Shown here: in pieces, positions 7,412 to 55,046 of the stretch
How positions within the stretch are numbered: the stretch's first letter is position 1
Layout: every line of letters begins with the position of its first letter
Source: Minisyncoccota bacterium
Lineage (GTDB): Bacteria; Patescibacteriota; Minisyncoccia; Phycocordibacterales; UBA9973
Length of the DNA: 64,000 nucleotides
Direction of reading: 5' to 3'
Assembly: GCA_041662525.1 (NCBI GenBank)
Contig: JBAZSF010000002.1
Span: forward strand, 90,196 to 154,195
Position numbers and translations under genes: made by a program
Notes under the pieces: generated by a model
Told to the model about the DNA's origin: nothing
Database searches by the model: none
The model's input: only the letters and a program-made list of their open reading frames with translations

Positions 7412-7505
7412 TTTTTATTAAATTTTATTAAAAAAAGCCCTGTTGCTACAGGACTCATATATAAGAATAGTATCATAGGAGCTATTTTAATGCAATCCCG
7501 TGAAT

Positions 7506-7516: not shown

Positions 7517-7563
7517 CCCCTGATTCACCCTTTTTATTTTTTGTTCTATACTTGAATTAACTT

Positions 7564-8776: not shown

Positions 8777-8808
8777 TCTAATTAAGATTAAATTTTTACA
8801 GAAAATAC

Positions 8809-8840
8809 AAAAAACCGGGAATCGTCTCGGTTTTTTGTAT
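8809..8840 (+). terminator. terminator hairpin
   Basis: aaaaaccgggaatcgtctcggtttttt. Confidence 0.5.
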
Positions 8841-8956
8841 TTTGGAGTGCTCTTGATTTTTATTTGTTGGTATGTTAGAATAAAAATTGAAAAAAGAGGG
8901 CCTTGGGCTCTTTGAAAGTACAATAAATAAAAAAAACTAAAAGGGGGTCGAAAAAA

Positions 8957-9708: not shown

Positions 9709-9749
9709 AAAAAACAAAAAATATTAGAATATTTTGAAGTTCAGGGTTC

Positions 9750-9760
9750 TGTGGATAAGT
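9750..9760 (-). promoter_or_regulatory. ACTTATCCACA box (perfect TTATCCACA core)
   Basis: Lies 40 bp upstream of the surface-protein gene start at 9800. Confidence 0.35.
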
Positions 9761-9799
9761 AATTTTGTAGTATTTTTTAATTGGGGATATAATATAAAA

Positions 9800-12837: not shown

Positions 12838-12854
12838 GATTAAAATTATAAATA

Positions 12855-12948
12855 AAACTTTTTTCGGTACGGATTTTTTGAAGCTTAAAAAATCCTGAAG
12901 TTCTTGGCTCGTCAGCCTCGAAACCCCTTCAAAAGTTTATTTTTAATT
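12855..12948 (-). repeat. ~90-bp repeat family 2, copy 1
   Basis: ~85% identical to 47240-47328 in opposite orientation. It has aaactttt/aaaagttt ends and an internal ggatttttt-aagctt-aaaaaatcc hairpin. Confidence 0.6.
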
Positions 12949-12965
12949 TATAAATTAAAAATATT

Positions 12966-16959: not shown

Positions 16960-17742
16960 ATGCAAAATAAAAAAATAATTGTTGGTAATTGGAAAATGAA
17001 CCCACCTACTTCTAAAGAAGCTGAAAAGCTATTTTCTGATGTGGTAAAAGGAATTTCTGCAATAAAAAAAACAGTTAAAAAAACTGAAGTGGTGATTTGC
17101 CCACCTTTTATTTATCTAGAGAAATTAAAAAAAATTAGAACTACTAAAATAAATTTAGGCGCACAGAATGCTTTTGAAGGTGAAGTAGGTGCATTTACTG
17201 GAGAAGTTTCGCCTTATATGCTGTCTAGTATTGGTGTCAAATATGTAATATTGGGTCATTCGGAGAGACGCGCTTTTGGGGAGAGCAATAGTGACATAAA
17301 TAAAAAAATAAAATCTTCACTTGGCGCGGGGCTTAATCCGATATTGTGTGTTGGAGAAAATACTCGTGACGAGAGTCATGGTTATTTTAATTTAGTTAAA
17401 ACACAAATAGAAGAATGCTTGGCGGGAGTTTCTAGAAACTCAATTTTAAAAATTATCATTGCTTATGAACCAGTTTGGGCGCTCTCTAGTACTGTTAATC
17501 GCAAGGACGCCACCGCTTTTGATTCTAGAGAAATGACTCTTTTTATTCGCAAAATTCTTTCTGATAAATTTGGTAAAGATGCAGCCATAATGAGGATTAT
17601 TTATGGTGGTTCTGCTAATGAAAAAGATGCGGAAGATTTTCTCAAAAATGGAGGAGTAGACGGGTTACTCCCTGGTCGTGCTAGTTTGAATGCAAAAAAG
17701 TTTATAGAAATTGTAAAAATATGCGAAGCATCAAGTCAATAA
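16960..17742 (+). CDS. tpiA: triosephosphate isomerase
   Basis: IVGNWKMN and AYEPVWA motifs. Confidence 0.9.
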   Translation: MQNKKIIVGNWKMNPPTSKEAEKLFSDVVKGISAIKKTVKKTEVVICPPFIYLEKLKKIRTTKINLGAQNAFEGEVGAFTGEVSPYMLSSIGVKYVILGHSERRAFGESNSDINKKIKSSLGAGLNPILCVGENTRDESHGYFNLVKTQIEECLAGVSRNSILKIIIAYEPVWALSSTVNRKDATAFDSREMTLFIRKILSDKFGKDAAIMRIIYGGSANEKDAEDFLKNGGVDGLLPGRASLNAKKFIEIVKICEASSQ

Positions 17743-18764
17743 AAAACCTGCCTCGACTAGGCAAGGCGGGTTTAAAAGGGAAGAGGGTGATACTGCGCGT
17801 TGATTTTAATGTGCCTATTAAAAATGGGAAAGTAGAAGATGATTTTCGTATAAAAAGAGCGTTGCCGACAATTAACTTTTTGCTTAAAAAAGGCGCAAAA
17901 ATAATTTTAATCACGCATCTTGGTAAAGATGGCAAGGCAAGCTTAGAACCTGTAATAAAATATTTTTTTGCAATTTCAAAAATAGATCCAAATAAAGTTA
18001 CCTTTTTTGATAATGTTAGAAAATTTCCTGGTGAAATGAAAAATGATCCTGCTTTTGCCAAAAAACTTTCAACCATGGGGGATATTTATGTAAATGATGC
18101 TTTTTCGGTTTCTCACAGGGAACATGCTTCATTGGTAATGCTACCTAAGTATTTACCAAGTTTTGCTGGATTGGAGTTTGAGAAAGAAATAGAAAATTTA
18201 TCGCATACTTTTAAAAAACCTAAACATCCGTTTTTATTTATTTTAGGTGGGGCTAAGTTTTCTACCAAGATGCCTCTTGTAAAAAAATATTTAAAATTAG
18301 CTGACTATGTTTTTGTTGGTGGGGCCCTAGCCCATGATTTTTTGAAAGCAAAAGGTTACAAGATCGGAAAGTCTTTAATTAGTAATGATAATTATGGGAT
18401 TACAGAATTATTAAAAAATAAAAAATTGATTTTGCCTACTGATTTTGTAATGAAAGATGGAGTTATCGTGGACATTGGAGAAGAAACAGTAAAAAATTTA
18501 GCATCCTTGATAAAGAAATCAAAACTCATCCTTTGGAATGGACCACTCGGCAGATATGAAGATGGAGGCGCCGAAGCTACAAAAAAAATATTGAAATTAG
18601 TCGCGAATGCTAAGGCTGAAAGTATCGTCGGCGGAGGAGATACTGTGGCTTTAGTAGATGAAATGAACATGAGAAATAAATTTTCTTTTGTGTCTACTGG
18701 AGGCGGTGCCATGCTTGATTTTTTATCAAATGGAACCTTGCCTGGAATTAAAGCTCTGAAATAA
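17721..18764 (+). CDS. pgk: phosphoglycerate kinase (short)
   Basis: RVDFNVP N-terminal motif and GGGA/GGGD hinge motifs. Confidence 0.85.
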   Translation: MRSIKSIKNLPRLGKAGLKGKRVILRVDFNVPIKNGKVEDDFRIKRALPTINFLLKKGAKIILITHLGKDGKASLEPVIKYFFAISKIDPNKVTFFDNVRKFPGEMKNDPAFAKKLSTMGDIYVNDAFSVSHREHASLVMLPKYLPSFAGLEFEKEIENLSHTFKKPKHPFLFILGGAKFSTKMPLVKKYLKLADYVFVGGALAHDFLKAKGYKIGKSLISNDNYGITELLKNKKLILPTDFVMKDGVIVDIGEETVKNLASLIKKSKLILWNGPLGRYEDGGAEATKKILKLVANAKAESIVGGGDTVALVDEMNMRNKFSFVSTGGGAMLDFLSNGTLPGIKALK

Positions 18765-21427: not shown

Positions 21428-22915
21428 ATGCGCGATAGAGTTTTTTATACAATTTGTTTTGGTTTTTTATTTGGAGTGCTTTTGCGCTCTTTTGTTTTTA
21501 TAGATTTATATTTAATTATTTTATTTAGTGTAATTGCTAGCGCTTTATTTTTGTTTTTTACATTGATTGCAAAAAGTGATTGGGCCTACCTGCGCAGGCA
21601 GGGAATTTTATTTTCAATTTTTGTTTTAACTTTTTGTTTGGGTGTTTTTAGATTTAATATGGTTGATGTTTTTAATCCTGTTGTTTTTGAATCTCAAGTA
21701 AATCAAAAAGTAACTTTTTCAGGGGAAATTATTGATGAACCGAGCATTAAAGAAAATAATCAGCAATTAATAGTAGAAATACAAATCCCCGCCAAAACGA
21801 AAATTATTTTATCGACAAGATTAGATGCTGATTATAAATACGGAGATGAAATAAAGTTTTCTGGAAAATTAGAAAAGCCGGAGAATTTTATCACTAATCA
21901 AGGAAAAGAATTTGATTATATAAATTATTTGCGTAAAGACGGAATTTTGTATGTGATGAGTTATCCAAAAATTGAAATTATTTCACACGGGAACGGTAAT
22001 GCAATTCAAAGCATATTATTTGATGTTAAAGATAAATTTTTAGAAAAAATTAATTTTGCTATTCCTGCTCCTGAGAATCTACTGATGGGTGGGCTTATTT
22101 TGGGTGAAAAATCTTCTTTTAGTCAAGAGTTGAGAGAGAGTTTTGTGAATACTGGTACGATACATATCGTGGCCCTTTCTGGATACAACGTGACGATAAT
22201 TGCTGAATGGATTATGAAATTATTTGGATTTTTACCGAAAACTTTCGGTATTGGGATAGGAATTTTGGCAATATTTTTATTTATCATTATGACTGGTGGT
22301 AGCTCGACGGCTATTCGAGCGGGGATAATGGCGATTTTAGTATTGATAGCCCGCGCGACTGGAAGAAATTATGATGTCGCGCGGGCCCTTGTGCTTGCAG
22401 GGGTAGGGATGATTTTATTTAATCCTTTTCTGCTTGTTTATGATGTTTCTTTTCAGCTTTCTTTTCTGGCAACAATTGCTGTGATATTTATCGCGCCAAG
22501 AATTGAAAAATATTTTCTATGGGTACCGAAAACTTTTGAATTGCGAGACATAGTATCTGTCACTTGCGCTGCTTATTTTTTTGTTTTTCCATTTATTCTT
22601 TACAAAATGGGTAATTTTTCACTCGTGGCTTTGCCAGCTAATTTTTTAATTTTGCCTTTTATTCCTTTCACAATGATGCTCGGATTTATTACTGGTTTTC
22701 TAGGCCTTATTTATTATATATTGGCGGTACCAGTGGGGTATCTTTCCTATTTATTTTTGCATTATGAGCTCGGAGTAGTAAGTTTTTTCTCACATCTACC
22801 GTTTGCCGCTTTTGCTTTTCCTGATTTTTCATTTTGGCTAATAGTTCTAATTTACACCTATTTTATTTATAGACTTTTTGGCAGAAATATAAAAAGTTTT
22901 TTTAGAGAAAATTAA
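21428..22915 (+). CDS. comEC: ComEC/Rec2 DNA-uptake channel (DUF4131 + competence domain, no MBL domain)
   Basis: Polytopic membrane protein with the IHIVALSGYNVTII competence-domain motif. Confidence 0.75.
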   Translation: MRDRVFYTICFGFLFGVLLRSFVFIDLYLIILFSVIASALFLFFTLIAKSDWAYLRRQGILFSIFVLTFCLGVFRFNMVDVFNPVVFESQVNQKVTFSGEIIDEPSIKENNQQLIVEIQIPAKTKIILSTRLDADYKYGDEIKFSGKLEKPENFITNQGKEFDYINYLRKDGILYVMSYPKIEIISHGNGNAIQSILFDVKDKFLEKINFAIPAPENLLMGGLILGEKSSFSQELRESFVNTGTIHIVALSGYNVTIIAEWIMKLFGFLPKTFGIGIGILAIFLFIIMTGGSSTAIRAGIMAILVLIARATGRNYDVARALVLAGVGMILFNPFLLVYDVSFQLSFLATIAVIFIAPRIEKYFLWVPKTFELRDIVSVTCAAYFFVFPFILYKMGNFSLVALPANFLILPFIPFTMMLGFITGFLGLIYYILAVPVGYLSYLFLHYELGVVSFFSHLPFAAFAFPDFSFWLIVLIYTYFIYRLFGRNIKSFFREN

Positions 22916-26987: not shown

Positions 26988-28730
26988 ATGGAAAAAGAGA
27001 TAAAAAATTTAATCAAAGATGCGCTTAAAAATCTAAATATAGAGGTTAGTAATATTGTTCTTGAACATCCGGAAAATCTAAGTAATGGAGATTATTCTAC
27101 AAATGTGGCTTTAGCTATAGCAAAAAGTGTTGAGAGAAATCCTAAAGAATTAGCAGAAAAAATAATCGTAGAAATTTTAAGATTAAATGTTGATAAAAAT
27201 ATAGAAAAAGTAGAAGTTGCAGGCAGTGGGTTTATAAATTTCTACCTATCAAGAAAATATTTTTCTAAAAGTGTTGAAGAAATTTTAAATAATCCGGAAA
27301 ATTTCGGGAAAAATGACTCATTAGAAGGAAAAAAAATAATGGTGGAGTATACAGATCCTAATCCTTTCAAGCCTTTTCATATCGGGCACTTAATGAGTAA
27401 TGCCATTGGAGAATCAATCTCGCGCCTTGTGGAGTTTTCTGGGGCAGAGATTGCGCGAGCAAATTATCAGGGAGATGTCGGGCTTCATGTGGCCAAAGCT
27501 ATCTATGGACTTTTAGATAATGAAAAGTTACAAAACAAAAATGGAACTCATAATTTTCAAGCAGGAAATATCGGACAAGCATATGTAGCTGGAGCAGGAG
27601 CTTATGAAAATAATCCTGAGGCTAAAAAAGAAATAGATGAAATAAATAAAAAACTTTATGATAAGAACGACCAGAAAATAAATGAAATATATGATTGGGG
27701 TTTTAAAGTGACGATGGAAGCTTTTGAAGATTTATATAAAATGCTCGGCACAAAATTTGATTTTTATTTTTTAGAAAGCATGATGGCGGATATTGGGCGC
27801 GAAATTGTAAATGAAAATATGGGTAAGGCCGTAGGTCCTGAGAATAATCGAAGGATTTTTGAAGAATCCGATGGTGCTATTGTCTTTAAAGCTGAAAAAT
27901 ATGATCCTAAATTACACACTCGAGTTTTTATTACTTCAAAAAATTTACCAGCATATGAAACTAAGGAGCTTGGCTTAGCGGTAGAAAAATTCAAAACTTA
28001 TCCAGGTATGGATTTATCGATTGTGGTAACTGCTAACGAACAGATGGATTATATGCGTGTCGTAGCAAAAGCGATATCGCTTATTCATCCAGATTTTGAA
28101 AATAAGATGAAGCATGTCACACATGGGATGATGCGTCTCACTACTGGCAAGATGGGGTCTCGAAAAGGGAATGTCATTACTGGTGAATCATTGATAAATG
28201 AAGTTCGCGATACTATTTTAGACAAAATGACCGATAGAGATTTTTCTAATGAAGAGAGGGAAAAGATTGCAACGGAAGTTGGAATTTCTGCGTTAAAATA
28301 TTCTATATTGAAACAAGGAATTGGTGGAGATATTATATTTGATTTTGAAAAATCTATTTCTTTTGAAGGGGATTCAGGGCCATATTTGCAATATTCTTAT
28401 GCTCGCGCAAATTCAATTTTAGAAAAAGCGCAAAAAGAAAATATTTTGCCAGATCCACATGCTTTTCCGCCTGAAATTTTTGAAGTGGAAAAATTATTAT
28501 ACAAATTTCCAGAAGTTGTGTTACGTTCTTCTTCTTTATATGAACCGCACCATGTTGCGAATTATCTAATAGAAGTCGCTCGTGCTTATAGCAGTTTTTA
28601 TGGGAATAATATTATTGTAAATAGAGAAGACCCTAGTTCGTCTTATAAAATTGCTTTAACTTATGCGTTTTCTTTTGTAATGAAAAATGGTTTGCACCTC
28701 TTAGGCATCGTGGCTCCAAAGAAAATGTAG
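26988..28730 (+). CDS. argS: arginine--tRNA ligase
   Basis: HIGH-like PFHIGHLMS motif and a DALR anticodon-binding C-terminus. Confidence 0.9.
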   Translation: MEKEIKNLIKDALKNLNIEVSNIVLEHPENLSNGDYSTNVALAIAKSVERNPKELAEKIIVEILRLNVDKNIEKVEVAGSGFINFYLSRKYFSKSVEEILNNPENFGKNDSLEGKKIMVEYTDPNPFKPFHIGHLMSNAIGESISRLVEFSGAEIARANYQGDVGLHVAKAIYGLLDNEKLQNKNGTHNFQAGNIGQAYVAGAGAYENNPEAKKEIDEINKKLYDKNDQKINEIYDWGFKVTMEAFEDLYKMLGTKFDFYFLESMMADIGREIVNENMGKAVGPENNRRIFEESDGAIVFKAEKYDPKLHTRVFITSKNLPAYETKELGLAVEKFKTYPGMDLSIVVTANEQMDYMRVVAKAISLIHPDFENKMKHVTHGMMRLTTGKMGSRKGNVITGESLINEVRDTILDKMTDRDFSNEEREKIATEVGISALKYSILKQGIGGDIIFDFEKSISFEGDSGPYLQYSYARANSILEKAQKENILPDPHAFPPEIFEVEKLLYKFPEVVLRSSSLYEPHHVANYLIEVARAYSSFYGNNIIVNREDPSSSYKIALTYAFSFVMKNGLHLLGIVAPKKM

Positions 28731-30358: not shown

Positions 30359-30940
30359 ATGGGAAATAGATGTGAGAGAATTACAACAAAAAAAGATAGT
30401 GGAAAACAGATTCCTTTTTCTGGTCATGATCCAGCAGAAGTTTATGATTTTGCTAGAATGGAATTCATAGATATGCTTAAGAAAATTACTCAGGAAATGA
30501 ATTCCGGTGATAATTTTGATATTATTGATTTTATCGTCGGAAAAGATGGGGCGTCGGTTGAGCTTGCTGATGATATAGAATATTTTATAAAAAAATTAGG
30601 AAATAAAAATATTGTAGTTAATAGCAGTTCTGTGGATTTCATCCGGAATGTTTCTTCCAATATGATGGCTTTGGTTGGTAAAATAATAAGAAAAGCCCAC
30701 GAAGGTGGTCTTCCACATGAAAAATTTGAAGAGTATGCCAAAGATATAAAAGATGATTATGATGCTTTAAAAAAATATTTCAATCTTATGGAAAAAGATA
30801 AAGATTTTCAATCTTTAGAAATAGGGAGTCGCAAAGGTTATATCGCTCATATAAATCCAAAAAATATTGATATAACATCAAAAGATAGAAAGAAGTATGT
30901 GGATTGGCTTGAAAATTATTTATCTAAAAATAAAAATTAA
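30359..30940 (+). CDS. hypothetical protein
   Basis: ORF with good coding potential but no recognisable motifs. Confidence 0.4.
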   Translation: MGNRCERITTKKDSGKQIPFSGHDPAEVYDFARMEFIDMLKKITQEMNSGDNFDIIDFIVGKDGASVELADDIEYFIKKLGNKNIVVNSSSVDFIRNVSSNMMALVGKIIRKAHEGGLPHEKFEEYAKDIKDDYDALKKYFNLMEKDKDFQSLEIGSRKGYIAHINPKNIDITSKDRKKYVDWLENYLSKNKN

Positions 30941-31029: not shown

Positions 31030-34000
31030 ATGGCCAAAGAAATTCAGGAAGAAGAAAATAAAAGCGAAGCGGCTTTGCGGGAAGAGCGGATTTTAGAATT
31101 TTGGAAAGAAAATAAAACTTTTGAAAAAACTTTAAAACAAACGGAGGGCAAAAAAGAATTTATTTTTTACGAAGGTCCGCCGACAGCGAATGGCAAGCCA
31201 GGCATTCATCATTTAGAAGCGCGAGCATTCAAAGACGCAATTCCTAGGTATAAAACAATGCAGGGTTTCCATGTTCGTCGAAAGGGTGGATGGGATACAC
31301 ATGGGCTTCCCGTTGAGCTTCAGGTAGAAAAAAAGCTAGGGCTTAATTCTAAAAAAGCTATCGAAGAATATGGTATTGCGAAATTTAATCAAGAATGCAA
31401 AGAAAGCGTCTGGGAGTATTTAGATATTTGGAATAAATTTACTCATCGTATTGGATATTGGGTGGATCAAGAGAACCCGTATGTGACATATCACAACGAT
31501 TATATTGAATCTGTTTGGAATGTTGTTAAAGCAATAAATAAACAAAATTTACTTTATAAAGATTATAAAGTGGTGCCTTGGTGTCCTAGGTGTGGTACAG
31601 CTTTGTCCTCTCATGAACTTGCGCAGGGTTATGAAGATGTGAAAGATTTGTCTGTGTATGTGAAGTTTAAGGTTCGTTCTGTCCCCGAAAGATTTTCTCA
31701 GGTCCTCGGAACTCCCTCTCCCTATCCCGGCCAGACCATTCAAAAACCTTCCGGGGACTTTACTTATATTCTTGCTTGGACGACAACTCCGTGGACACTT
31801 CCTGGGAATGTAGCATTGGCAGTAGGAGAAAATATTATTTATGTAAAAATAGAAAAACCTGCCTCGACGCAAGGCGGGGGAAAAGAATTTTTAATTTTAG
31901 CAAAAGAAAGACTTTCTATTTTAGAAGGGGAATATAAAATAATTGAAGAATTTATAGGCAAAGATTTAATTGGATTGGAATACGAGCCTCTTTATCCATA
32001 TCTTGCTGACACAATTTCTGAAAGTGAAAAACCTAAATTAGAAAAAGCTTTCAAGGTTTATGGAGCGGATTTTGTAACGACAGAAGACGGTACAGGGGTA
32101 GTGCATACGGCAGTGATGTACGGACAGGATGACTTTGAGCTTGGTACAAAGGTTGGTTTGCCAAAGCATCATATTGTCGGTCTAGATGGAAAATTTTTAC
32201 CGGGTACTGGAATATTTGAAGGTAGATTTGTGAGAGATGAAGACGTGGCGGTAGATGTGATAAAAGATTTAGCGCATAGAGGAAATGGAGGGCTTTTATT
32301 TAAAAAAGAAAAATACGAGCATTCCTATCCGCATTGTTGGAGATGCAAAACGGCACTTATTTATTACGCTCGAGATTCTTGGTATATAAAAGTCTCTGAT
32401 CCTAAAATAAAAGAAAGAATGATAGCCGAGAACAAAGAAGTAAATTGGGAACCAGCACATATTCGGGATGGGCGTTTTGGTGAATGGTTAAGGGAGATAA
32501 AAGATTGGGCGATTTCTCGTGAGCGATATTGGGGTACACCTTTGCCTGTTTGGATTTGTGAATCTTGCAAGAAGATTGACGTCATCGGGAGCATTGAAGA
32601 TTTAAAAAATAAAACTAAAAAATTTGGCAATAAATATTTTGTAATGAGACATGGTGAAGCAGAAAATAATGCTCTTTGTATTTATTCTTCCAATCAAAAA
32701 ATAAATCATTTGACAAAGCTCGGACAAACGGAAGTTGAAAAGACATCCCAAGTTCTTTTGAACAAAAAAATTACCAAGATTTATTGCTCGCCCTTTTTAA
32801 GAACACGAGAAACTGCCGAAATCGTTGCAGAGCAGATAAATTTCCCTAAAGATAGAATTATTTACGATGATAGAATTCGAGAATTAGAATTTGGAGATTT
32901 TTCTGATTGTAGAGAGGAGGATTTTTGGGATTTTATAAAAAATAAAGATTGGGGATTTGATACAGTTGTCCCTGGAGGGGAGAGCCACCAAAATGCAAAG
33001 AATCGAATGGGAGATTTTCTTTATGAAATTGATCAAAAAAATAAAGATGAAACGATTTTAATTATTTCGCATGGATTAGCAATAGAAATGATTCCAGCTA
33101 TTATTGAAGGAGCAGATAAAAAGCGTTCACTCGAAATTTTCCATTCACATATATGCGACAAACCAGCTTCATTGCACAAAGAACATGAATTTGTTTTTCT
33201 TCCCCATAACGCAGACTATGAACTTGATTTACATAAACCTTTTATAGATGAAGTTAATCTGATGTGCACCCATTCTACTGGCAGAGGGCAAGTATGTGGG
33301 GGAAAATTAACTCGCACTCGCGAGGTGATGGATGTCTGGTTTGATTCTGGATGTATGCCATTTGCGCAAGATCATTATCCCTTCGATTTCTCTCAGGGCA
33401 AGCCTTTTGAGGAGACCGAAATTTTATACCCTGCAGATTTTATTTCGGAAGCAATAGATCAGACTCGTGGATGGTTTTATACTTTGCATGCTGTTGGAAT
33501 ACTTATGGGGCGAGGGAAAGCATATAAAAATGTAATTTGTCTTGGACATTTACTCGATTCCAAAGGTAAAAAAATGTCTAAATCTCTTGGTAATATTGTC
33601 GACCCTTGGGAGATGATAGAAAAATACGGAGTGGATACATTGAGACTCTGGATGTATTCAGTCAATCAACCTGGAGAATCTAAAAATTTTGATGAAAAAA
33701 CTGTCGCTCTTCTCCACCAACAAGTTTTTGGTTTGCTTTATAATGTGCTCGCTTTCTATGAGCTTTATCGAGATAATTCTATCAATGCCCATTCGACAAG
33801 CTCAGGACAAATATCAAGTACTAACGTTCTTGATATTTGGATTTTAGCACGGCTAGATGAATTGATTAGCGAATCCACAAAAAAAATGGATAATTATAAA
33901 TTGCTTGAACCAGTGCGAGCGATAAAGGATTTTATTGGGGACCTTTCTACTTGGTATTTGCGTCGTTCACGTGAGCGGATAAAGAATGGAGATAGGCAAG

Positions 34001-34629
34001 CGAAAGAAACTCTGTATTATGTATTAAAAACTCTTGTAAAACTTCTAGCACCTTTTGCCCCCTTTACAGCTGAAGATATTTGGATGAAATTAAAAACAGA
34101 AAAAGATGAAGAAAGTGTGCATTTGGCTGAGTGGCCCCTCGCTTCTGCTCGGGGCCTTCAGCCCAAGATTTTAGAGAATATGCAAAAAACAAGAGATATT
34201 GTGACTTTAGGACTTGAAGCTCGTCAAAAGGCTGGAATAAAAATCAGGCAACCTTTGCAATCTTTTTCTTTTGAATCAACAGATTTAGACGAATACAGCA
34301 ATCTTATCAAAGATGAGCTTAATGTAAAAGAGATCATACATGGTGACCTTATGCTTGATACAAATATTACTTCAGAATTAAAACAAGAAGGGGATTGTCG
34401 TGAGCTTATACGTGCCTTACAAGATATGCGTAAAAATCAGGGACTAACACCGAGCGATGCTATTTCAATTGTTTTTGAAACAAATGATAATGGTAAAAAA
34501 TTAATTGAAAAATTTGAAAATGATTTGAAAAAAACTGTGCTAGTTTCTGAAATAAAATATCGTGAAAATGATGGACAGGAAATAAGAATAGACGAATTTG
34601 CTTTTAAAGTGAAAATTAGTAAAATATAA
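31030..34629 (+). CDS. ileS: isoleucine--tRNA ligase carrying two insertions (repeat-encoded loop and a histidine-phosphatase domain)
   Basis: PGIHHLEA (HIGH-like), WTTTPWTLP, WAISRERYWGTPLP, DVWFDSG and KMSKS motifs. At 1199 aa it is ~200 aa longer than typical bacterial IleS. Confidence 0.9.
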   Translation: MAKEIQEEENKSEAALREERILEFWKENKTFEKTLKQTEGKKEFIFYEGPPTANGKPGIHHLEARAFKDAIPRYKTMQGFHVRRKGGWDTHGLPVELQVEKKLGLNSKKAIEEYGIAKFNQECKESVWEYLDIWNKFTHRIGYWVDQENPYVTYHNDYIESVWNVVKAINKQNLLYKDYKVVPWCPRCGTALSSHELAQGYEDVKDLSVYVKFKVRSVPERFSQVLGTPSPYPGQTIQKPSGDFTYILAWTTTPWTLPGNVALAVGENIIYVKIEKPASTQGGGKEFLILAKERLSILEGEYKIIEEFIGKDLIGLEYEPLYPYLADTISESEKPKLEKAFKVYGADFVTTEDGTGVVHTAVMYGQDDFELGTKVGLPKHHIVGLDGKFLPGTGIFEGRFVRDEDVAVDVIKDLAHRGNGGLLFKKEKYEHSYPHCWRCKTALIYYARDSWYIKVSDPKIKERMIAENKEVNWEPAHIRDGRFGEWLREIKDWAISRERYWGTPLPVWICESCKKIDVIGSIEDLKNKTKKFGNKYFVMRHGEAENNALCIYSSNQKINHLTKLGQTEVEKTSQVLLNKKITKIYCSPFLRTRETAEIVAEQINFPKDRIIYDDRIRELEFGDFSDCREEDFWDFIKNKDWGFDTVVPGGESHQNAKNRMGDFLYEIDQKNKDETILIISHGLAIEMIPAIIEGADKKRSLEIFHSHICDKPASLHKEHEFVFLPHNADYELDLHKPFIDEVNLMCTHSTGRGQVCGGKLTRTREVMDVWFDSGCMPFAQDHYPFDFSQGKPFEETEILYPADFISEAIDQTRGWFYTLHAVGILMGRGKAYKNVICLGHLLDSKGKKMSKSLGNIVDPWEMIEKYGVDTLRLWMYSVNQPGESKNFDEKTVALLHQQVFGLLYNVLAFYELYRDNSINAHSTSSGQISSTNVLDIWILARLDELISESTKKMDNYKLLEPVRAIKDFIGDLSTWYLRRSRERIKNGDRQAKETLYYVLKTLVKLLAPFAPFTAEDIWMKLKTEKDEESVHLAEWPLASARGLQPKILENMQKTRDIVTLGLEARQKAGIKIRQPLQSFSFESTDLDEYSNLIKDELNVKEIIHGDLMLDTNITSELKQEGDCRELIRALQDMRKNQGLTPSDAISIVFETNDNGKKLIEKFENDLKKTVLVSEIKYRENDGQEIRIDEFAFKVKISKI
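31681..31758 (+). repeat. repeat family 1, copy B (core 31701-31740), inserted in-frame in ileS
   Basis: Core GGTCCTCGGAACTCCCTCTCCCTATCCCGGCCAGACCATT flanked by gtccccgaaag / cttccggggac inverted arms. It encodes PERFSQVLGTPSPYPGQTIQKPSGD in a variable loop before the editing domain. Confidence 0.65.
32600..33230 (+). other. histidine-phosphatase (PGM/SixA/PhoE-like) domain inserted within ileS
   Basis: FVMRHGEAENN (RHG motif), SPFLRTRETAEIV and LIISHGLAI (second catalytic His). It lies between the WG(T/V)PLP and DVWFDSG blocks, where normal IleS has only ~60 aa. Confidence 0.55.
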
Positions 34630-38202: not shown

Positions 38203-39648
38203 ATGAAAGAAGAAAATAAAAAAGACCCTTCGATGGGCTCAGGGCAAGATAAAAAGAATAATTTGATGGAAAAAATAGTTTCGCTATGTAAGAGGCGAGG
38301 GTTTGTGTATCCGAGTTCTGAGATTTATGGGGGGATGGCTGGTATTTATGATTATGGACACTATGGGATTTTGTTCAAAGAGAATATAAAAAATGCATGG
38401 CTTAAACATATGATTCAGCTTCGGGATGATGTTTATGGTTTAGACAGCGCTATTTTTATGCATCCACAAACCTGGGTAGCTTCTGGCCATGTCGGGGGGT
38501 TTAATGATCCGCAAGTAGATTGCAAAAATTGTAAATCTAGATTTCGAGCAGACCATCTATTAGAAAGTTTTGGAATTATTATTGACGACAAGACACCTGT
38601 TGAAACAATGAATGCTGAACTTGATAAACTACGTACAGAAAAGAAGCTTGTTTGTCCAAATTGTAAATCAATAGATCTGACTCCCGCAAAAATATTTTCC
38701 CTGATGGTTAAATCTAATCTTGGTTCTCCAGTCGATGTTTTAACTGAAGAAAATGTTACATATTTGAGGCCTGAAACTTGTGGTGGTATTTATTTGGAAT
38801 ATAAAAATACTCTTGATTCTCTACATCCCAAACTTCCTTTTGGTATTGCGCAAGTAGGCAAGGCTTTTAGGAATGAAATCGCAGCTCGTCAATATATTTT
38901 TCGCACGCGTGAATTTGAACAAATGGAAATGCAGTATTTTCATCATAAATCGCAGACGAAAGATTTGTATGAGAACTGGAAAAAAACAAGATGGACTTGG
39001 TATTTAGAATATGGTATCCCAGAGGAAAAAATAAGATGGTATAAACATGAGAAGTTAGCGCACTATGCGAGTGAAGCGTATGACATTGAATATGCTTTTG
39101 ATTTTTTTGGAGGTAGTTTTAAAGAGGTAGAGGGTATTCATGCGCGCGGAGACTGGGATTTATCACAGCATTCAAAATTTTCTGGTGTTACGCTTGATTA
39201 TTATGATGAAGAAACAAAAGAAAGATTTATCCCGCATATTATGGAAACTTCTGTTGGTTTAGCTAGATTATTTTTAATGTTTTTAGATAATGCTTATACT
39301 GAAGAAGTTAAAGATGGAGAGACACGAGTTTTTTTGAAACTTGATCCACGACTTTCTCCGATAAAATGCGCTGTTTTTCCACTTTTAAAAAATAAGCCGG
39401 AACTTGTATCGAAAGCTCGCGCGGTTTTTGAAACACTTCGTGAAGAAATTATTTGCGAATTTGATGACAATGGCAACATAGGCAAACGCTATAGAAGACA
39501 AGATGAAATCGGCACGCCATTTTGTATTGTGATTGATTTTGATACTTTGACAGATGATGCTGTGACTGTCCGTGATCGTGATACAGGGAAACAAGAGAGA
39601 GTGAAAGTGGTAGATTTGAAAAATTATATAAAAGAAAAGATTCAATAA
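38203..39648 (+). CDS. glyQS: glycine--tRNA ligase (alpha2 type)
   Basis: GFVYPSSEIYGG, class II motifs and an anticodon-binding C-terminus. Confidence 0.9.
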   Translation: MKEENKKDPSMGSGQDKKNNLMEKIVSLCKRRGFVYPSSEIYGGMAGIYDYGHYGILFKENIKNAWLKHMIQLRDDVYGLDSAIFMHPQTWVASGHVGGFNDPQVDCKNCKSRFRADHLLESFGIIIDDKTPVETMNAELDKLRTEKKLVCPNCKSIDLTPAKIFSLMVKSNLGSPVDVLTEENVTYLRPETCGGIYLEYKNTLDSLHPKLPFGIAQVGKAFRNEIAARQYIFRTREFEQMEMQYFHHKSQTKDLYENWKKTRWTWYLEYGIPEEKIRWYKHEKLAHYASEAYDIEYAFDFFGGSFKEVEGIHARGDWDLSQHSKFSGVTLDYYDEETKERFIPHIMETSVGLARLFLMFLDNAYTEEVKDGETRVFLKLDPRLSPIKCAVFPLLKNKPELVSKARAVFETLREEIICEFDDNGNIGKRYRRQDEIGTPFCIVIDFDTLTDDAVTVRDRDTGKQERVKVVDLKNYIKEKIQ

Positions 39649-41901: not shown

Positions 41902-42984
41902 ATGCCAGAAAAAAGTGATTTGACTCATATTTCCATATCCACCAGCACGATATTTAAGTTTTTTCTAGTACCTATTTTTATATTCCTATTATATTTTTTG
42001 AGGGATTTAGTTTTAGTGGTTTTGACGGCCATCGTAATAGCTTCTTTTATTGACTCATCTGTTCCACACTTTAAAAAAATAGGAATTAAGAATAGAATTT
42101 TTGGGATTGTTATTTTTTATACTATCTCTCTTCTCCTTTTGGGTGGCGTGTTTTATCTTTTTGCTCCGCTTTTAATAACAGAAATTTATAATTTCTCCAC
42201 TTTTCTTTCAACCTATACTCAAGATGTTTCATTCTTTAATTTTTTCAAGAACGAAGCATTCTCTGGCGCAAAAGACATAGTCGGGACTCTTTCAGGAAAT
42301 TTTTCGCTCACTACACTTTTATCTGTATCAAAAGCTTTTGTTTTGAATCTTTCTGGAGGATTTGTACAAATTCTTTTTATTGCTTTTGGTGGTCTTTTCA
42401 ATTTTGTTTTAATTATTCTTTTATCTTTCTATCTTTCAGTTCAAGAAAAAGGAATAGAGAATTTTCTTTATATTATTACTCCTCCTAAATATGATAATTA
42501 TGTTGTAGATTTATGGACGCGCTCAAGTCGTAAAATAGGTCTTTGGGTGAAAGGACAAATGCTTTTAGGTCTTGTGGTCGGAGTTCTTGTTTATTTAATT
42601 CTTTCTTTGTTAGGTATCGAATATGCATTACTTTTAGCTATTATTACAGGAATAATGGAAATGGTTCCTTATGGTATTTTAGTAGCGATGATTCCTGTTT
42701 TTGCCTTTTCTTACATTTCAAACGGTATAGGCAGTGCCTTTATGGTGGCAGGAGCTTATATCATTGTTCATGAATTTGATGTATTTCTTTTTACTCCACT
42801 ACTTATAAAAAAGATTGTTGGGCTTTCCCCGATTGTTATTATTCTCTCTGTAGTTATCGGCTTTGAATTAGGAGGAATTTGGGGAGCGATCTTAGCGATT
42901 CCACTCGCGATAATTTTAATGGAATTCTTAAATGATATTGAGAAAGATAAGATTTCGTCCAAAATAAACCAAGACAAACAATGA
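41902..42984 (+). CDS. AI-2E family (PerM/UPF0118) membrane transporter
   Basis: ~8 TM helices at the length typical of this family. Confidence 0.6.
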   Translation: MPEKSDLTHISISTSTIFKFFLVPIFIFLLYFLRDLVLVVLTAIVIASFIDSSVPHFKKIGIKNRIFGIVIFYTISLLLLGGVFYLFAPLLITEIYNFSTFLSTYTQDVSFFNFFKNEAFSGAKDIVGTLSGNFSLTTLLSVSKAFVLNLSGGFVQILFIAFGGLFNFVLIILLSFYLSVQEKGIENFLYIITPPKYDNYVVDLWTRSSRKIGLWVKGQMLLGLVVGVLVYLILSLLGIEYALLLAIITGIMEMVPYGILVAMIPVFAFSYISNGIGSAFMVAGAYIIVHEFDVFLFTPLLIKKIVGLSPIVIILSVVIGFELGGIWGAILAIPLAIILMEFLNDIEKDKISSKINQDKQ

Positions 42985-44444
42985 ACAAAAATAGTTTTTA
43001 CATCACGACGACGATACCCTATGTGAATGCTGATCCTCACATTGGTTTTGCACTCGAACTTGTGCAAGCTGATGCTGTTGCGAGATGTCAGCGTCTCATT
43101 GGTAGGGATGTTTTTTTTAGCACTGGTACTGATGAATATGGTCAGAAAATTTGGGAAGCAAGTGAAAAACAAGGTAAAAAAGTTCAAGACTACGTAGATT
43201 ATTACGCGCAGAAATTTTTAGATTTAAAAAATACTCTCAATCTTTCCTATGATAATTTTATTCGAACTACTAGTAAAGAAAATATCACAGCCGCACAAGA
43301 ATTTTGGCTCCTATGCGATAAAAAGGGAGATATTTATAAAGCAAAATATATAGGACTTTACTGTGTGGGGTGTGAGACTTTTTATACCGAAAAAGATTTA
43401 GTAGAAGAAAAGTGCCCGATACATTTGACTGTGCCAGAGAAAATAGAAGAAGAAAATTATTTTTTTAAATTGAGTAATTACAAAAAACAACTTCTTTTAT
43501 ATTTATCTAATGAAAAAGCGATCTTGCCAGAATGGAGACGCAAAGAAGCAATTTTTTTTGTAGAAAATGCAATGGAAGATTTTTCTATTTCTCGCAGTAA
43601 AAAGCGTGTTTCGTGGGGGATACCTATTCCCGGGGATGATGAACAAGTCATGTATGTTTGGTTTGGTGCTTTTGTAAATTATATTTCAACCTTAGGCTGG
43701 CCCTTCGCTTCTACTCAGGATCTCCGACCAGAAACAAAAGAAAATTTATTTGAAAAATTTTGGGAAAAAGGGGAAAAGATCCAAATGGCTGGTAAAGATA
43801 TGGTGAAGTTTCAATCAGTAATGTGGCAAGGCATGCTCATGTCCGCAGGACTCCCCAATACAGATACTATTGTTTATCATGGGTTTATAACTGGCGATGG
43901 AGGAATTAAAATGTCTAAGTCTTTGGGTAATGTGATTAACCCAAATGATATTGTAAAAGAATATAGCGCAGATGCGTTACGTTATTTTCTTTTGCGTGAG
44001 ATTTCTCCTTTTGAAGACAGTCCGTTTACCATGGAAAGGTTTAAGGAAGCATACAATGCGGGTCTAGCAAATGGATTAGGAAATTTAGCTTCAAGAATAT
44101 TAACTCTTTCAGAAAAATATTTACCCGAGTGTCCGGAAATAAGAGAGGAAATGGATCTAACAGAATTTTTTAGTTTTTTTGAAAAATTTGATGTTAAACA
44201 AGCTGTTGATTTCATTTGGAACGAGATAGGTGAATTAGATAAATTTATTCAGGAAACAGAACCATTTAAGGTGGTAAAAGTTGATGAAGAAAAAGGAAAA
44301 GAATTAATTTCTAATATGGTTGTTCGTCTGTATAAAATTGCCAGGATGTTAAATCCAATAATGCCAGAAACAAACATTATTCTCAAAAAATTAATTAAAG
44401 AAAACAAAAAACCAGACCAGCCATTATTTTTAAGAAAAGAATAA
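42981..44444 (+). CDS. metG: methionine--tRNA ligase (short form)
   Basis: PHIGF (HIGH variant) and KMSKS motifs. Confidence 0.9.
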   Translation: MNKNSFYITTTIPYVNADPHIGFALELVQADAVARCQRLIGRDVFFSTGTDEYGQKIWEASEKQGKKVQDYVDYYAQKFLDLKNTLNLSYDNFIRTTSKENITAAQEFWLLCDKKGDIYKAKYIGLYCVGCETFYTEKDLVEEKCPIHLTVPEKIEEENYFFKLSNYKKQLLLYLSNEKAILPEWRRKEAIFFVENAMEDFSISRSKKRVSWGIPIPGDDEQVMYVWFGAFVNYISTLGWPFASTQDLRPETKENLFEKFWEKGEKIQMAGKDMVKFQSVMWQGMLMSAGLPNTDTIVYHGFITGDGGIKMSKSLGNVINPNDIVKEYSADALRYFLLREISPFEDSPFTMERFKEAYNAGLANGLGNLASRILTLSEKYLPECPEIREEMDLTEFFSFFEKFDVKQAVDFIWNEIGELDKFIQETEPFKVVKVDEEKGKELISNMVVRLYKIARMLNPIMPETNIILKKLIKENKKPDQPLFLRKE

Positions 44445-54797: not shown

Positions 54798-54855
54798 TTA
54801 GAAGCTAGTTTACTTAGATAAATCAGTTCTGGTTAATACGCCTTAAAAAGTATTC

Positions 54856-54890
54856 AAAAAACCACTCTTAATTGAGTGGTTTTTTGTTTG
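54856..54890 (+). terminator. rho-independent terminator
   Basis: aaaaaccactc-ttaatt-gagtggttttt. Confidence 0.8.
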
Positions 54891-54922
54891 TGTTTTTTAA
54901 ATAATTTTTTTATTGGAAAATA

Positions 54923-54933
54923 AGTTATCCACA
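54923..54933 (+). promoter_or_regulatory. AGTTATCCACA box
   Basis: Exact 11-mer, 114 bp upstream of the surface-protein gene at 55047. Confidence 0.4.
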
Positions 54934-55046
54934 GTACATGATGATGTGATTATTTCTATTTGATTGTATAATTATAATGTTAATTCTAAATTAAGGTTGT
55001 GTTTTTTATTATTAATGTCGATTATTATTATTAATTTATTTTTATT

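What the first reader, a model, noticed from the sequence alone, without database searches (positions are those of the whole stretch)
32600..33230. Isoleucyl-tRNA synthetase with an inserted histidine-phosphatase (SixA/PhoE/PGM-like) domain
About 190 aa are inserted between the conserved WAISRERYWGTPLP block and the DVWFDSG block of IleS. Other IleS proteins have ~60 aa there. The insert carries both catalytic signatures of branch-1 histidine phosphatases: VMRHGEAENN (RHG) and SPFLRTRETA, then LIISHGLAI (second His), with appropriate spacing. The reading frame is continuous and the flanking IleS motifs (HIGH-like, KMSKS, anticodon-binding C-terminus) are intact, so this is a genuine fusion and not an assembly join. 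I know of no described aaRS carrying a phosphohistidine-phosphatase-type domain. It could dephosphorylate a nucleotide, a phosphoprotein or a tRNA-linked intermediate. Together with the in-frame repeat insertion, ileS here is ~200 aa longer than normal.
Basis: partly seen in the sequence, partly recalled or inferred. Interest (0 to 1): 0.8.

Follow-up and report, generated by a model that had tools for sequence, protein, structure and literature searches.

The report
Isoleucyl-tRNA synthetase with nested histidine phosphatase
The isoleucine-charging enzyme of this tiny uncultured (Patescibacteria) bacterium has a complete, apparently active phosphatase domain built into the middle of its catalytic body; hundreds of related genomes share this undescribed feature, and its substrate is unknown.

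Summary
Confirmed. The ORF at 31030-34629 (+, 1199 aa) is a type-2 isoleucyl-tRNA synthetase (TIGR00392, 872 bits). It carries a ~193-aa Pfam His_Phos_1 domain (E 1e-28, residues ~530-722, nt 32617-33195) nested in the zinc-knuckle CP3 subdomain, between WAISRERYWG and DVWFDSG.

It is not an assembly join. All 120 best full-length homologues, from Paceibacterota/Nomurabacteria MAGs in many assemblies, have it, and about 200 clusters at 50% identity share the flank-insert-flank arrangement.

The insert evolves faster than the synthetase core (49% vs 75% identity). Even so, R540, H541, R591, E651 and H681 are invariant and E618 is nearly so, down to ~30% identity.

AlphaFold folds the insert confidently (pLDDT 96). 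Its nearest structures are small-metabolite phosphatases (PspA, GpgP, PhoE, CobC), not SixA or true mutases.

Other IleRS lineages carry extra intact copies at three further loops. One low-coverage ValRS contig carries four copies, and eight close relatives add an HD domain.

No paper describing this was found. The substrate is unknown. My best guess is a nucleotide or tRNA-end phosphate met at the synthetase. The "in-frame repeat insertion" was not found.

The parts
31030..34629 (+). ileS: type-2 isoleucyl-tRNA synthetase, 1199 aa, with the nested phosphatase domain
   Evidence: ORF. TIGR00392 ileS 871.9 bits against a cut-off of 621.4. Pfam architecture. AF2 model pLDDT 87, pTM 0.80. Best PDB match is P. 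megaterium IleRS2 8c8w, E 1e-83. Identical to NCBI MFA6257681.1, Candidatus Paceibacterota MAG.
31201..31212 (+). Class I signature motif in its non-canonical form, G58-I59-H60-H61 (G/AXHH instead of HXGH)
   Evidence: Sequence. G/AXHH is the natural IleRS2 variant linked to mupirocin hyper-resistance (PMC10485003).
31582..32346 (+). CP core zinc pair (C185/C188 ... C436/C439) enclosing the CP1 editing domain, with the WTTTPWT motif at residues 250-256
   Evidence: Sequence read directly. High pLDDT in the full model.
32506..32547 (+). CP2-CP3 linker WAISRERYWGTPLP, which lines the tRNA CCA / reveromycin pocket in yeast IleRS
   Evidence: Nearly invariant in homologues. Role of the equivalent ARDWNVSRNRYWG segment is described in PMC7955072.
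32548..32616 (+). N-terminal part of CP3: beta-hairpin with C510/C513 and helix IEDLKNK
   Evidence: A zinc-binding CP3 also occurs in T. thermophilus IleRS (PMC7191050).
32617..33195 (+). Nested His_Phos_1 (branch-1 histidine phosphatase) domain, residues ~530-722
32647..32655 (+). R540-H541-G542: phosphate-binding Arg and the nucleophilic His
   Evidence: R and H invariant in 121 close and 112 distant homologues and in every extra copy.
32800..32802 (+). R591 (SPFLRTRET motif), second phosphate-pocket Arg
   Evidence: Invariant.
32881..32883 (+). E618, predicted proton donor
   Evidence: 121/121 in close homologues and 105/112 (+6 Asp) in distant ones. Its spacing from H541 equals that of Glu83 in PhoE (own knowledge of the family).
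33070..33072 (+). H681 (IISHG), second catalytic His
   Evidence: Invariant.
33196..33330 (+). C-terminal part of CP3: LPHNADYELDLHKPFIDEV, second zinc pair C746/C756, and a 7-aa loop (STGRGQV, 749-755) absent from 105-111 of 112 distant homologues
33331..33351 (+). DVWFDSG, start of the second Rossmann half
33571..33585 (+). KMSKS loop
33832..34260 (+). Anticodon-binding domain (Pfam Anticodon_1, residues 935-1077)
34351..34623 (+). Type-2 C-terminal tRNA-binding domain (DUF5915, residues 1108-1198)

Best explanation
This is a type-2 isoleucyl-tRNA synthetase that looks like the housekeeping enzyme, from a Candidatus Paceibacterota (Patescibacteria/CPR) bacterium. A complete, independently folding PhoE/PspA-like branch-1 histidine phosphatase domain (residues ~530-722) is nested in a surface loop of its zinc-knuckle CP3 subdomain. 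SHOWN: the architecture; intact synthetase motifs (GIHH, editing WTTTPWT, KMSKS, anticodon and C-terminal domains); a confident phosphatase fold; invariance of the catalytic set across relatives whose inserts are only ~30% identical; and recurrence of intact extra copies at other loops in other lineages. INFERRED: both activities are real. The phosphatase would work by the family's two-step mechanism. R540, R591 and H681 hold the phosphate, H541 attacks it to form phospho-His, E618 protonates the leaving group, and water releases phosphate. It is a hydrolase, not a mutase. MORE WEAKLY INFERRED: the domain stays on the synthetase because its substrate is met there. That substrate would be a terminal phosphate on a nucleotide-type ligand, such as a 2'/3'-(pyro)phosphorylated tRNA acceptor end or a nucleotide by-product or inhibitor at the ATP/CCA pocket. 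Tethering, rather than a conserved binding cap, would supply the specificity. My confidence is about 0.9 for a bifunctional enzyme with a catalytically competent phosphatase, about 0.5 for functional coupling to aminoacylation, and about 0.2 for the tRNA end specifically.
For: Architecture and significance.

Real and ancient: all 120 best full-length hits carry PF00300. 199 representatives of 50%-identity clusters reach E<=1e-30, and nearly all of the 150 listed span flank-insert-flank in one stretch. Carriers include Paceibacteria, Minisyncoccia, Yanofskybacteria, Spechtbacterales and Peregrinibacteria/Peribacteria MAGs.

Selection on catalysis: the insert averages 49% identity against 75% for the core, yet R540, H541, N547, R591, E618, E651, R659 and H681 are invariant in 121 sequences. 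R540, H541, R591, E651 and H681 are 112/112 in relatives whose inserts average 30% identity.

Coupling: intact copies occur at four different loops of IleRS, namely two points in CP3, one after WFESGSMPYA, and one at the SC-fold/anticodon-domain junction. There are up to three copies per IleRS, plus four in one ValRS, and all keep the catalytic set. The double-insert forms recur in several assemblies.

The substrate cap (residues 620-650) is the least conserved part of the domain, as expected if specificity does not reside in it.

The insert starts 23 residues after the linker that lines the tRNA CCA pocket.

From my own knowledge, prompted by structure titles and family names, His_Phos domains attached to nucleic-acid or nucleotide enzymes are known: mycobacterial MutT1 (Nudix + HP domain), RNase H/acid phosphatase Rv2228c, and TFIIIC tau55.
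Against: No activity has been measured, and the substrate inference is indirect.

The insert is not basic (median pI 6.3; this copy 5.9, net charge -4.5), so there is no signature of RNA binding.

Its nearest structural relatives all act on small metabolites.

The four insertion sites are not obviously equidistant from the active site, and I expect the SC-fold/anticodon-domain junction to be remote. That argues against precise channelling.

The apparent restriction to IleRS/ValRS may be an ascertainment effect, because the searches were seeded with IleRS flanks.

The ValRS example rests on a single contig at ~2x coverage, and a targeted scan found no more.
Confidence: 0.5

Rival explanations
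1. Hitch-hiking metabolic phosphatase. A broad-specificity PhoE-like housekeeping phosphatase became lodged in permissive loops of an essential, constitutively expressed gene in reduced genomes. It works on free cytosolic metabolites with no mechanistic link to aminoacylation.
For: The nearest structures are all free metabolite phosphatases. The cap is variable and the family is known as 'broad specificity'. The surface is acidic to neutral. The insertion sites coincide with loops that vary in length among IleRS, for example the low-pLDDT loop at 783-792.
Against: Unlinked fusions are usually terminal. Here intact copies are nested at four different internal points, with up to three copies in one IleRS, and have been retained across deep lineages. 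The other synthetases in the same window (ArgRS, ProRS, MetRS) have no insert.
Confidence: 0.22
2. Cis-acting protein phosphatase. The domain removes inhibitory phosphates placed on the synthetase itself, for example near the KMSKS loop, by HipA/HipT-like toxin kinases. This would make IleRS self-repairing.
Confidence: 0.08
3. The missing phosphoglycerate mutase. The nested domain supplies dPGM activity for lower glycolysis in Parcubacteria clades where no PGM is detected.
For: Jaffe et al. [quoted passage not shown] The window encodes phosphoglycerate kinase. The best NCBIfam hit for the insert is the short archaeal dPGM model, and S. pombe PGM is among the PDB sequence hits.
Against: All mutase models are far below cut-off: dPGM_arch 75.6 against 225, GpmB 52 against 261, PRK01295 33 against 316. 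The sequence lacks the dPGM substrate residues (no ERxY after the Glu, no RR pair, HGL instead of HGN) and the C-terminal tail (direct reading against my knowledge of the family). Two to four copies per synthetase make little sense for a glycolytic enzyme.
Confidence: 0.07
4. Non-hydrolytic role. The domain is a phospho-ligand sensor or an oligomerisation/structural module that modulates IleRS, with the pocket kept for binding or for a stable phospho-His state rather than for turnover.
For: Family members commonly form dimers or tetramers and dPGMs rest as phospho-His enzymes (own knowledge). The linkers are modelled with high confidence, which suggests rigid packing.
Against: The proton-donor Glu and the whole catalytic set, not only the phosphate-binding residues, are conserved in every copy. 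Pseudo-enzymes normally lose some of these residues.
Confidence: 0.08
5. Artefact: a chimeric assembly, frameshift or mis-joined contig.
For: None beyond the prior that MAG contigs can be chimeric. GC dips slightly to 0.33-0.34 in the insert.
Against: The frame is continuous. The same junctions occur in >120 full-length proteins from NCBI, JGI, ENA and Logan assemblies on contigs up to 672 kb. The GC dip is within the window's range. No flanking repeats were found.
Confidence: 0.01

Closest known systems
Stand-alone small branch-1 histidine phosphatases (B. stearothermophilus PhoE 1h2e, H. thermophilus PspA 4ij5, Rv2419c GpgP, CobC, riboflavin-pathway HFP 9mmh)
   Different: Those are free-standing enzymes with defined metabolite substrates. 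This one is nested inside another enzyme, is only 18-27% identical to them, falls below every curated family cut-off, and has a poorly conserved cap.
Bacterial type-2 IleRS (P. megaterium IleRS2 8c8w; T. thermophilus IleRS 1ile with a zinc-binding CP3)
   Same: Same domain order, C-terminal DUF5915 domain, zinc-knuckle CP3 and G/AXHH motif class. 33-35% identity and target-normalised TM 0.73 (8c8w) and 0.83 (1ile).
   Different: No described IleRS has a catalytic domain in CP3. CP3 there is ~60 aa (PMC7191050).
Known bifunctional proteins containing a His_Phos_1 domain (PFK-2/FBPase-2; Rv2228c RNase H/acid phosphatase; mycobacterial MutT1 Nudix + HP domain; Sts/TULA; TFIIIC tau55)
   Same: A histidine phosphatase domain joined to another enzyme or nucleic-acid factor. 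Several appear as structural or family hits. From my own knowledge, the MutT1 HP domain removes a terminal phosphate from a nucleotide.
   Different: In all of these the domains are joined end to end, not nested in a loop of the partner's catalytic domain, and none involves an aminoacyl-tRNA synthetase.
Synthetases with nested or appended catalytic modules (CP1 editing domain of IleRS/ValRS/LeuRS; ProRS INS; NCBIfam NF040702 'isoleucine--tRNA ligase, N-acetyltransferase domain-containing')
   Same: An extra catalytic domain carried by a synthetase. CP1 is likewise inserted into the Rossmann fold. A curated model for an IleRS with an extra enzyme domain already exists.
   Different: Those modules are aminoacyl-ester hydrolases or acetyltransferases acting on the amino-acid moiety. 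Here the module is a phosphohydrolase, a chemistry with no known role in aminoacylation.

Membership tests
Isoleucyl-tRNA synthetase (class Ia, type 2) | Curated equivalog model above its cut-off | tested here: met
   TIGR00392 scores 871.9 bits against a cut-off of 621.4, matched in two stretches interrupted by the insert.
Isoleucyl-tRNA synthetase (class Ia, type 2) | Class I signature motifs: HXGH (or the IleRS2 variant G/AXHH) and KMSKS | tested here: met
   GIHH at residues 58-61 and KMSKS at 848-852. G/AXHH is a natural, active IleRS2 variant (PMC10485003).
Isoleucyl-tRNA synthetase (class Ia, type 2) | CP1 editing domain, anticodon-binding domain and type-2 C-terminal domain | tested here: met
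   WTTTPWT and GTGVVH motifs are present. Pfam Anticodon_1 and DUF5915 match. The fold matches IleRS2 8c8w at E 1e-83.
Isoleucyl-tRNA synthetase (class Ia, type 2) | Aminoacylation of tRNA-Ile | not testable with these tools
   Needs an enzyme assay. I also could not establish whether this is the genome's only ileS, because only 64 kb is available.
Histidine phosphatase superfamily, branch 1 (Pfam PF00300) | Profile match above the gathering score | tested here: met
   100.7 bits against 21.7, E 1.1e-28, profile positions 2-168 of 194.
Histidine phosphatase superfamily, branch 1 (Pfam PF00300) | Catalytic set: RHG nucleophile His, second Arg, proton-donor Glu, second His | tested here: met
   R540/H541, R591, E618 and H681 are present and conserved.
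Histidine phosphatase superfamily, branch 1 (Pfam PF00300) | Alpha/beta fold with the two His side by side in one pocket | tested here: inconclusive
Histidine phosphatase superfamily, branch 1 (Pfam PF00300) | Phosphatase activity | not testable with these tools
   Needs biochemistry.
Cofactor-dependent phosphoglycerate mutase (dPGM) | Curated mutase models, plus dPGM substrate residues (ERxY, K100, RR116/117, HGN) and the C-terminal tail | tested here: not met
   dPGM_arch 75.6 against 225, GpmB 52.2 against 261, PRK01295 33.3 against 316. The sequence reads RELEFG and SHGL, with no RR pair and no tail (residue list from my own knowledge).
SixA phosphohistidine phosphatase | TIGR00249 above its cut-off; minimal ~155-aa fold without a cap | tested here: not met
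PspA phosphoserine phosphatase / CobC alpha-ribazole phosphatase | Equivalog models above their cut-offs | tested here: not met
   PspA 66.8 against 350; ribazole_cobC 74.9 against 162.9. These are nearest neighbours, not family membership.
Mobile insertion (intein or transposon-borne cassette) | Splicing (Hint) motifs, flanking repeats or a compositional break | tested here: not met
   No other Pfam family was found in the insert. Only A-rich chance repeats were found. GC is within the window's range.

The most novel reading that the evidence does not exclude
Class Ia synthetases of Patescibacteria have recurrently acquired a third catalytic site. This would be a tethered phosphatase that removes a blocking 2'/3'-phosphate or pyrophosphate from the tRNA acceptor end, for example after attack by toxSAS-type pyrophosphokinases or end-cleaving tRNases, or that destroys a phosphorylated nucleotide inhibitor at the CCA/ATP pocket. 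The synthetase would then carry a built-in repair or counter-defence activity. The extra HD phosphohydrolase domain in eight close relatives would belong to the same theme.
Probability: 0.15. Interest if true: 0.9.

Novelty: new variant of a known kind. Interest (0 to 1): 0.68.

Why it matters
Aminoacyl-tRNA synthetases are among the most conserved enzymes. New catalytic domains inside their core are rare and have historically revealed new biology, such as editing. This one is a phosphohydrolase, a chemistry with no known place in tRNA charging. It has been retained with every catalytic residue intact across a large part of the Patescibacteria, and in some lineages it has multiplied at several loops of the same enzyme.

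If it acts on tRNA ends, nucleotides or the synthetase itself, it would define a new quality-control or defence layer in translation in the most abundant uncultured bacterial radiation.

There are also practical consequences. The insert makes NCBI's pipeline name these essential genes only 'class I tRNA ligase family protein' or 'histidine phosphatase family protein'. Metabolic reconstructions could also mis-count the domain as a phosphoglycerate mutase.

Tried and rejected
- **In-frame repeat insertion.** Tandem Repeats Finder found nothing relevant in ileS. The only extras are short loops that most relatives lack (residues 749-755 and 791-800) and a low-confidence loop at 233-239.
- **Assembly chimera.** Rejected on the basis of independent assemblies.
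- **Mobile element or intein.** No flanking repeats, other domains or compositional break.
- **A close stand-alone ancestor.** The best 'PhoE' hit, P0378 (43% identity), turned out to be a piece of an ileS split into four gene calls. True stand-alone relatives are <=34% identical, and the gene contexts of the two looked up (P0380, P0385) are uninformative.
- **Conserved ileS / His_Phos gene adjacency.** Seen in only 1 of 58 insert-free loci (Urinicoccus, 21% identity).
- **More ValRS examples.** A metagenome pattern scan (WCISRQxWWGH ... RHG) returned 120 loci, but none of the 119 ValRS ORFs has the domain. The pattern was swamped by ordinary ValRS.
- **Domain tree.** It is star-like and resolves only that the two Peregrinibacteria copies are old and distinct, and that the ValRS copies cluster together.
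- **RNA-binding signature.** Not found; the insert pI is not basic.
- **C-terminal HD domain of relatives.** No informative family or PDB match.
- **afdb50 fold search.** The library was not available.
- **Geometry.** Model coordinates are not exposed, so distances between the phosphatase pocket and the synthetic and editing sites could not be computed.
Full report
**The observation**

The window holds one long ORF, 31030-34629 on the + strand, 1199 aa. Pfam finds tRNA-synt_1 (E 3e-115, split in two), Anticodon_1, DUF5915 and, between the two halves of the catalytic domain, His_Phos_1 at residues 537-702 (E 1.1e-28, 100.7 bits against a gathering score of 21.7). NCBIfam's ileS equivalog scores 872 bits against a cut-off of 621.

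I compared the region with IleRS sequences whose CP3 is uninterrupted, for example P0317...GSLIELQKKSQKELPRNDAGEVDLHRPYID.... The native sequence resumes at LPHNADYELDLHKPFID, so the insert proper is residues ~530-722 (nt 32617-33195). The two flanking blocks are 275 aa apart here against 76 aa in P0317.

Tandem Repeats Finder reports nothing relevant in ileS, and the insert alone accounts for the extra length.

**Where the insert sits**

The segment between the W-x-ISR-x-RYWG linker and D-x-W-F-D-S-G is the CP3 subdomain of IleRS. In T. thermophilus IleRS it contains a zinc-binding motif, and its topology differs between IleRSs, so it is a variable region (PMC7191050). The linker just upstream lines the pocket where the tRNA CCA end and reveromycin A bind in yeast IleRS (PMC7955072).

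Here the two Cys pairs of the knuckle (C510/C513 and C746/C756, conserved in 119 of 121 close homologues) bracket the insert. The enzyme itself is a bacterial type-2 IleRS. The best structural matches of the AlphaFold model (pLDDT 87, pTM 0.80) are Priestia megaterium IleRS2 structures (E 1e-83, 33% identity).

**It is real and old**

- The exact protein is in NCBI as MFA6257681.1, 'class I tRNA ligase family protein [Candidatus Paceibacterota bacterium]', on a 160-kb contig.
- All 120 best full-length homologues (64-82% identity; NCBI, JGI, ENA and Logan assemblies; contigs up to 672 kb; labelled Paceibacterota, Nomurabacteria or Patescibacteria) also carry PF00300.
- An exhaustive HMMER scan of 1.84 billion cluster representatives, using flank + insert + flank as query, gave 199 proteins at E<=1e-30. 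Nearly all of the 150 listed match in a single stretch across the whole query, and those of full length (~1100-1270 aa) match at the equivalent position.
- In species-representative genomes, carriers include Paceibacteria, Minisyncoccia, Yanofskybacteria, Spechtbacterales and Peregrinibacteria/Peribacteria MAGs. At least one other Patescibacteria genome has an ordinary CP3.
- GC content shows no break and there are no flanking repeats.

An assembly artefact is excluded.

**It looks catalytically alive**

In 121 aligned sequences the insert is much less conserved than the synthetase core (49% against 75% mean identity to the query). Even so, R540, H541, N547, R591, E618, E651, R659 and H681 are invariant.

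In 112 cluster representatives whose inserts average only 30% identity to this one, R540, H541, R591, E651 and H681 are still 112/112. E618 is 105/112 (six Asp) and R659 is 110/112.

These are the residues of the branch-1 histidine phosphatase mechanism. Two Arg and one His hold the phosphate, the RHG His is the nucleophile, and a Glu is the proton donor. Their spacing matches PhoE (own knowledge of the family).

Folded alone, the domain gives pLDDT 95.9 and pTM 0.92. Inside the full model it has pLDDT 93-98, including its linkers.

**What kind of histidine phosphatase**

| Comparison | Nearest matches |
|---|---|
| PDB by sequence | H. thermophilus phosphoserine phosphatase PspA (E 1e-10), S. 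pombe PGM, Shb17, CobC, PhoE, TIGAR |
| PDB by structure, protein phosphatases | SixA (15.8), PGAM5 (15.0), Sts-2 (14.3) |

Every curated NCBIfam family is far below its cut-off: dPGM_arch 75.6 against 225, CobC 74.9 against 163, PspA 66.8 against 350, GpmB 52 against 261, SixA 38 against 74.5.

The sequence lacks the dPGM-specific substrate residues and the C-terminal tail. It has a PhoE-like GxFxGK segment after the Glu. It is therefore best described as a distinct PhoE/PspA-like clade of capped, metabolite-type phosphatases. It is not SixA and not a mutase.

The cap (residues ~620-650) is the least conserved part of the domain. The domain is not basic: median pI is 6.3 over 300 copies, and 5.9 for this one.

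True stand-alone relatives are <=34% identical. The one closer 'PhoE' hit is a fragment of an ileS that had been split into four gene calls.

**Unexpected extension: more sites, more copies**

Scanning all retrieved proteins with an HMM built from the insert, then reading the junctions, shows four distinct insertion points in IleRS.

| Site | Position | Examples |
|---|---|---|
| A1 | In CP3, before DLHxPxID | This protein and most others |
| A2 | In CP3, after DLHK...W and before MKR..EVLDCWFESG | P0324; second copy of P0344 |
| B | After WFESGSMPYA..PF.N and before FPADFIAEG | P0324, P0362 |
| C | After FFxTYAxIDxW.P, at the stem-contact-fold / anticodon-domain junction | P0317 (only there), P0362, P0368, P0324 |

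Peregrinibacteria/Peribacteria IleRS (1470-1490 aa) carry A1 + A2 (L017-L020; P0344 cluster). The IleRS with B + C (P0362) is found in six assemblies, on contigs up to 1.06 Mb. P0324 has at least three copies.

One partial ValRS (P0371) has four copies, one before and three after its WCISRQxWWGH linker. It comes from a single contig at ~2x coverage. A targeted metagenome scan found no further ValRS cases, so I treat it as anecdotal.

Every complete copy at every site keeps the core catalytic residues (R, H, R, E, H); the only departures in the wider eight-residue set are N547→Ala in one ValRS copy and E651/R659→Gln in one P0324 copy.

A neighbour-joining tree is star-like. It does show that the two Peregrinibacteria copies are old and distinct lineages, and that the ValRS copies group together.

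Eight close relatives of this protein (1317-1365 aa) additionally carry an HD-domain phosphohydrolase in the C-terminal region. It is not assignable to a characterised HD family.

**How it most likely works**

What is shown is a synthetase with all its own motifs intact, plus a nested domain with an intact, strongly constrained histidine-phosphatase active site.

From that I infer a bifunctional enzyme whose second activity is hydrolysis of a phosphomonoester, or of a terminal nucleotide phosphate, through a phospho-His541 intermediate.

Why it sits in IleRS is not shown. Three facts argue that being attached to this synthetase is what is selected:
- insertion is internal and repeated, at several loops;
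- copies have multiplied;
- catalytic residues have been retained over deep divergence.

The variable cap argues that specificity is not encoded in the domain. This fits a substrate presented by the synthetase. The most plausible candidates are a phosphorylated tRNA acceptor end or a nucleotide at the ATP/CCA pocket, which is adjacent to the insertion point in sequence.

Precedents for histidine phosphatase domains joined to nucleotide or nucleic-acid enzymes exist: MutT1, Rv2228c and TFIIIC tau55. They appear as family or structure names, and their biology is from my own knowledge.

Several things count against this. The surface is acidic to neutral. All the nearest structures are metabolite enzymes. 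I expect site C to be far from the active site. My searches were seeded with IleRS flanks, so specificity for IleRS is not proven. I could not measure the geometry because model coordinates are not exposed.

My confidence is about 0.9 for the bifunctional, catalytically competent architecture, about 0.5 for functional coupling, and about 0.2 for tRNA-end dephosphorylation specifically.

**Rivals**

- **Hitch-hiking broad-specificity metabolic phosphatase (0.22).** Supported by the structural neighbours. Weakened by the nested, multi-site, multi-copy pattern, and by the absence of inserts in the ArgRS, ProRS and MetRS of the same window.
- **The 'missing PGM' of Parcubacteria (0.07).** Jaffe et al. 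note that PGM is undetected in several shallow Parcubacteria clades (PMC7304191), and the window encodes PGK. However, the domain fails every mutase criterion tested.
- **Cis-acting protein phosphatase against Hip-like kinases (0.08).**
- **Non-hydrolytic sensor or structural module (0.08).**
- **Artefact (0.01).**

**Novelty**

Six full-text searches found no description of this. Neither the 2023 phylogenetic and structural study of IleRS1/IleRS2 nor a 2026 preprint on IleRS domain evolution mentions a phosphatase insert or Patescibacteria.

The proteins have been in public databases for years. One relative (P0208) is held by UniRef and NCBI under the name 'Isoleucine-tRNA ligase' from a Nomurabacteria MAG, while others carry only automatic names such as 'class I tRNA ligase family protein'.

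Synthetases with extra catalytic modules are a known kind: CP1 editing, ProRS INS, and an NCBIfam model for an IleRS with a GNAT domain. A nested histidine phosphatase is a new variant of that kind.

**Verdict**

I score interest at 0.68. A synthetase specialist would be surprised by it, and it is directly testable, but its function is still open.

Noticed in passing
window 31201-31212 (IleRS residues 58-61): The class I signature motif is GIHH, the non-canonical G/AXHH form. In IleRS2 this form raises the mupirocin Ki by up to ~1000-fold (PMC10485003). This enzyme is therefore predicted to be mupirocin hyper-resistant.
   Followed up: partly
P0133, P0148, P0169, P0174, P0176, P0193, P0217, P0222 (close homologues, 1317-1365 aa): These IleRS carry the His_Phos_1 insert plus an HD-domain phosphohydrolase (PF01966/PF13023) in the C-terminal tRNA-binding region, starting after ...GLNPxDKM. 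The HD part matches no characterised family or solved structure by sequence.
   Followed up: partly
P0324, P0362, P0368, P0317, P0344, P0327, P0364; L017-L020 (about nt 4500-8980 of each locus): Other IleRS lineages have intact His_Phos_1 copies at three further loops (second point in CP3; after WFESGSMPYA; SC-fold/anticodon-domain junction), with two or three copies per protein. Peregrinibacteria/Peribacteria IleRS are ~1480 aa with two copies in CP3.
   Followed up: yes
P0371 = L086/L087 366-3851: A ValRS (PPPNVTGNLHLGHA, WCISRQIWWGH) has four His_Phos_1 copies, one before and three after the CP2-CP3 linker. It is known only from one contig at ~2x coverage, assembled twice. A pattern scan for more found none.
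   Followed up: partly
L071 4708-7806 and 7810-8418 (Urinicoccus massiliensis): An insert-free ileS is followed, 3 bases later, by a stand-alone 202-aa His_Phos_1 gene (21% identical to the insert). This is the only such adjacency among 58 insert-free loci, so it may be coincidence.
   Followed up: partly
L081 219-3563: In one metagenome contig the insert-bearing ileS is split into four consecutive gene calls (tRNA-synt_1 / His_Phos_1 / tRNA-synt_1 / Anticodon_1). The cause could be frameshifts, sequencing errors or a different genetic code. The middle piece is annotated as 'broad specificity phosphatase PhoE'.
   Followed up: no
window 31030-34629; database names: Automatic annotation calls these essential genes 'class I tRNA ligase family protein', and calls fragments 'histidine phosphatase family protein, partial'. 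This is possibly because the insert interrupts the ileS model match. Metabolic reconstructions could mis-count the domain as a phosphoglycerate mutase.
   Followed up: no
window 31678-31758, 33274-33294, 33376-33429 (residues 217-243, 749-755, 783-800): Short surface loops: residues 749-755 and 791-800 are absent from most relatives, and 233-239 and 783-792 are low-confidence in the model. The last one coincides with insertion site B of other lineages.
   Followed up: partly
window 26988-28730, 38203-39648, 42981-44444, 17721-18764: ArgRS, ProRS and MetRS lie in the same 64 kb and have ordinary architectures without phosphatase inserts. A phosphoglycerate kinase gene is also present.
   Followed up: partly
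window 11053-14183, 21428-22915, 52728-57032, 58883-62671: The gene content is typical of Patescibacteria: type IV pilus ATPase and platform protein, ComEC competence channel, two large proteins with peptidoglycan-binding domains, and a 1262-aa surface protein with Ig-like domains. Several ORFs (9734-10966, 15672-16937, 30359-30940) have no Pfam match.
   Followed up: no
L208 (contig carrying P0362): The IleRS with inserts at sites B and C sits next to DAHP synthase, a phosphoribosyltransferase and an SLH-domain protein, and related contigs reach 1.06 Mb. This lineage may not be a typical Patescibacteria member. Its taxonomy was not determined.
   Followed up: no
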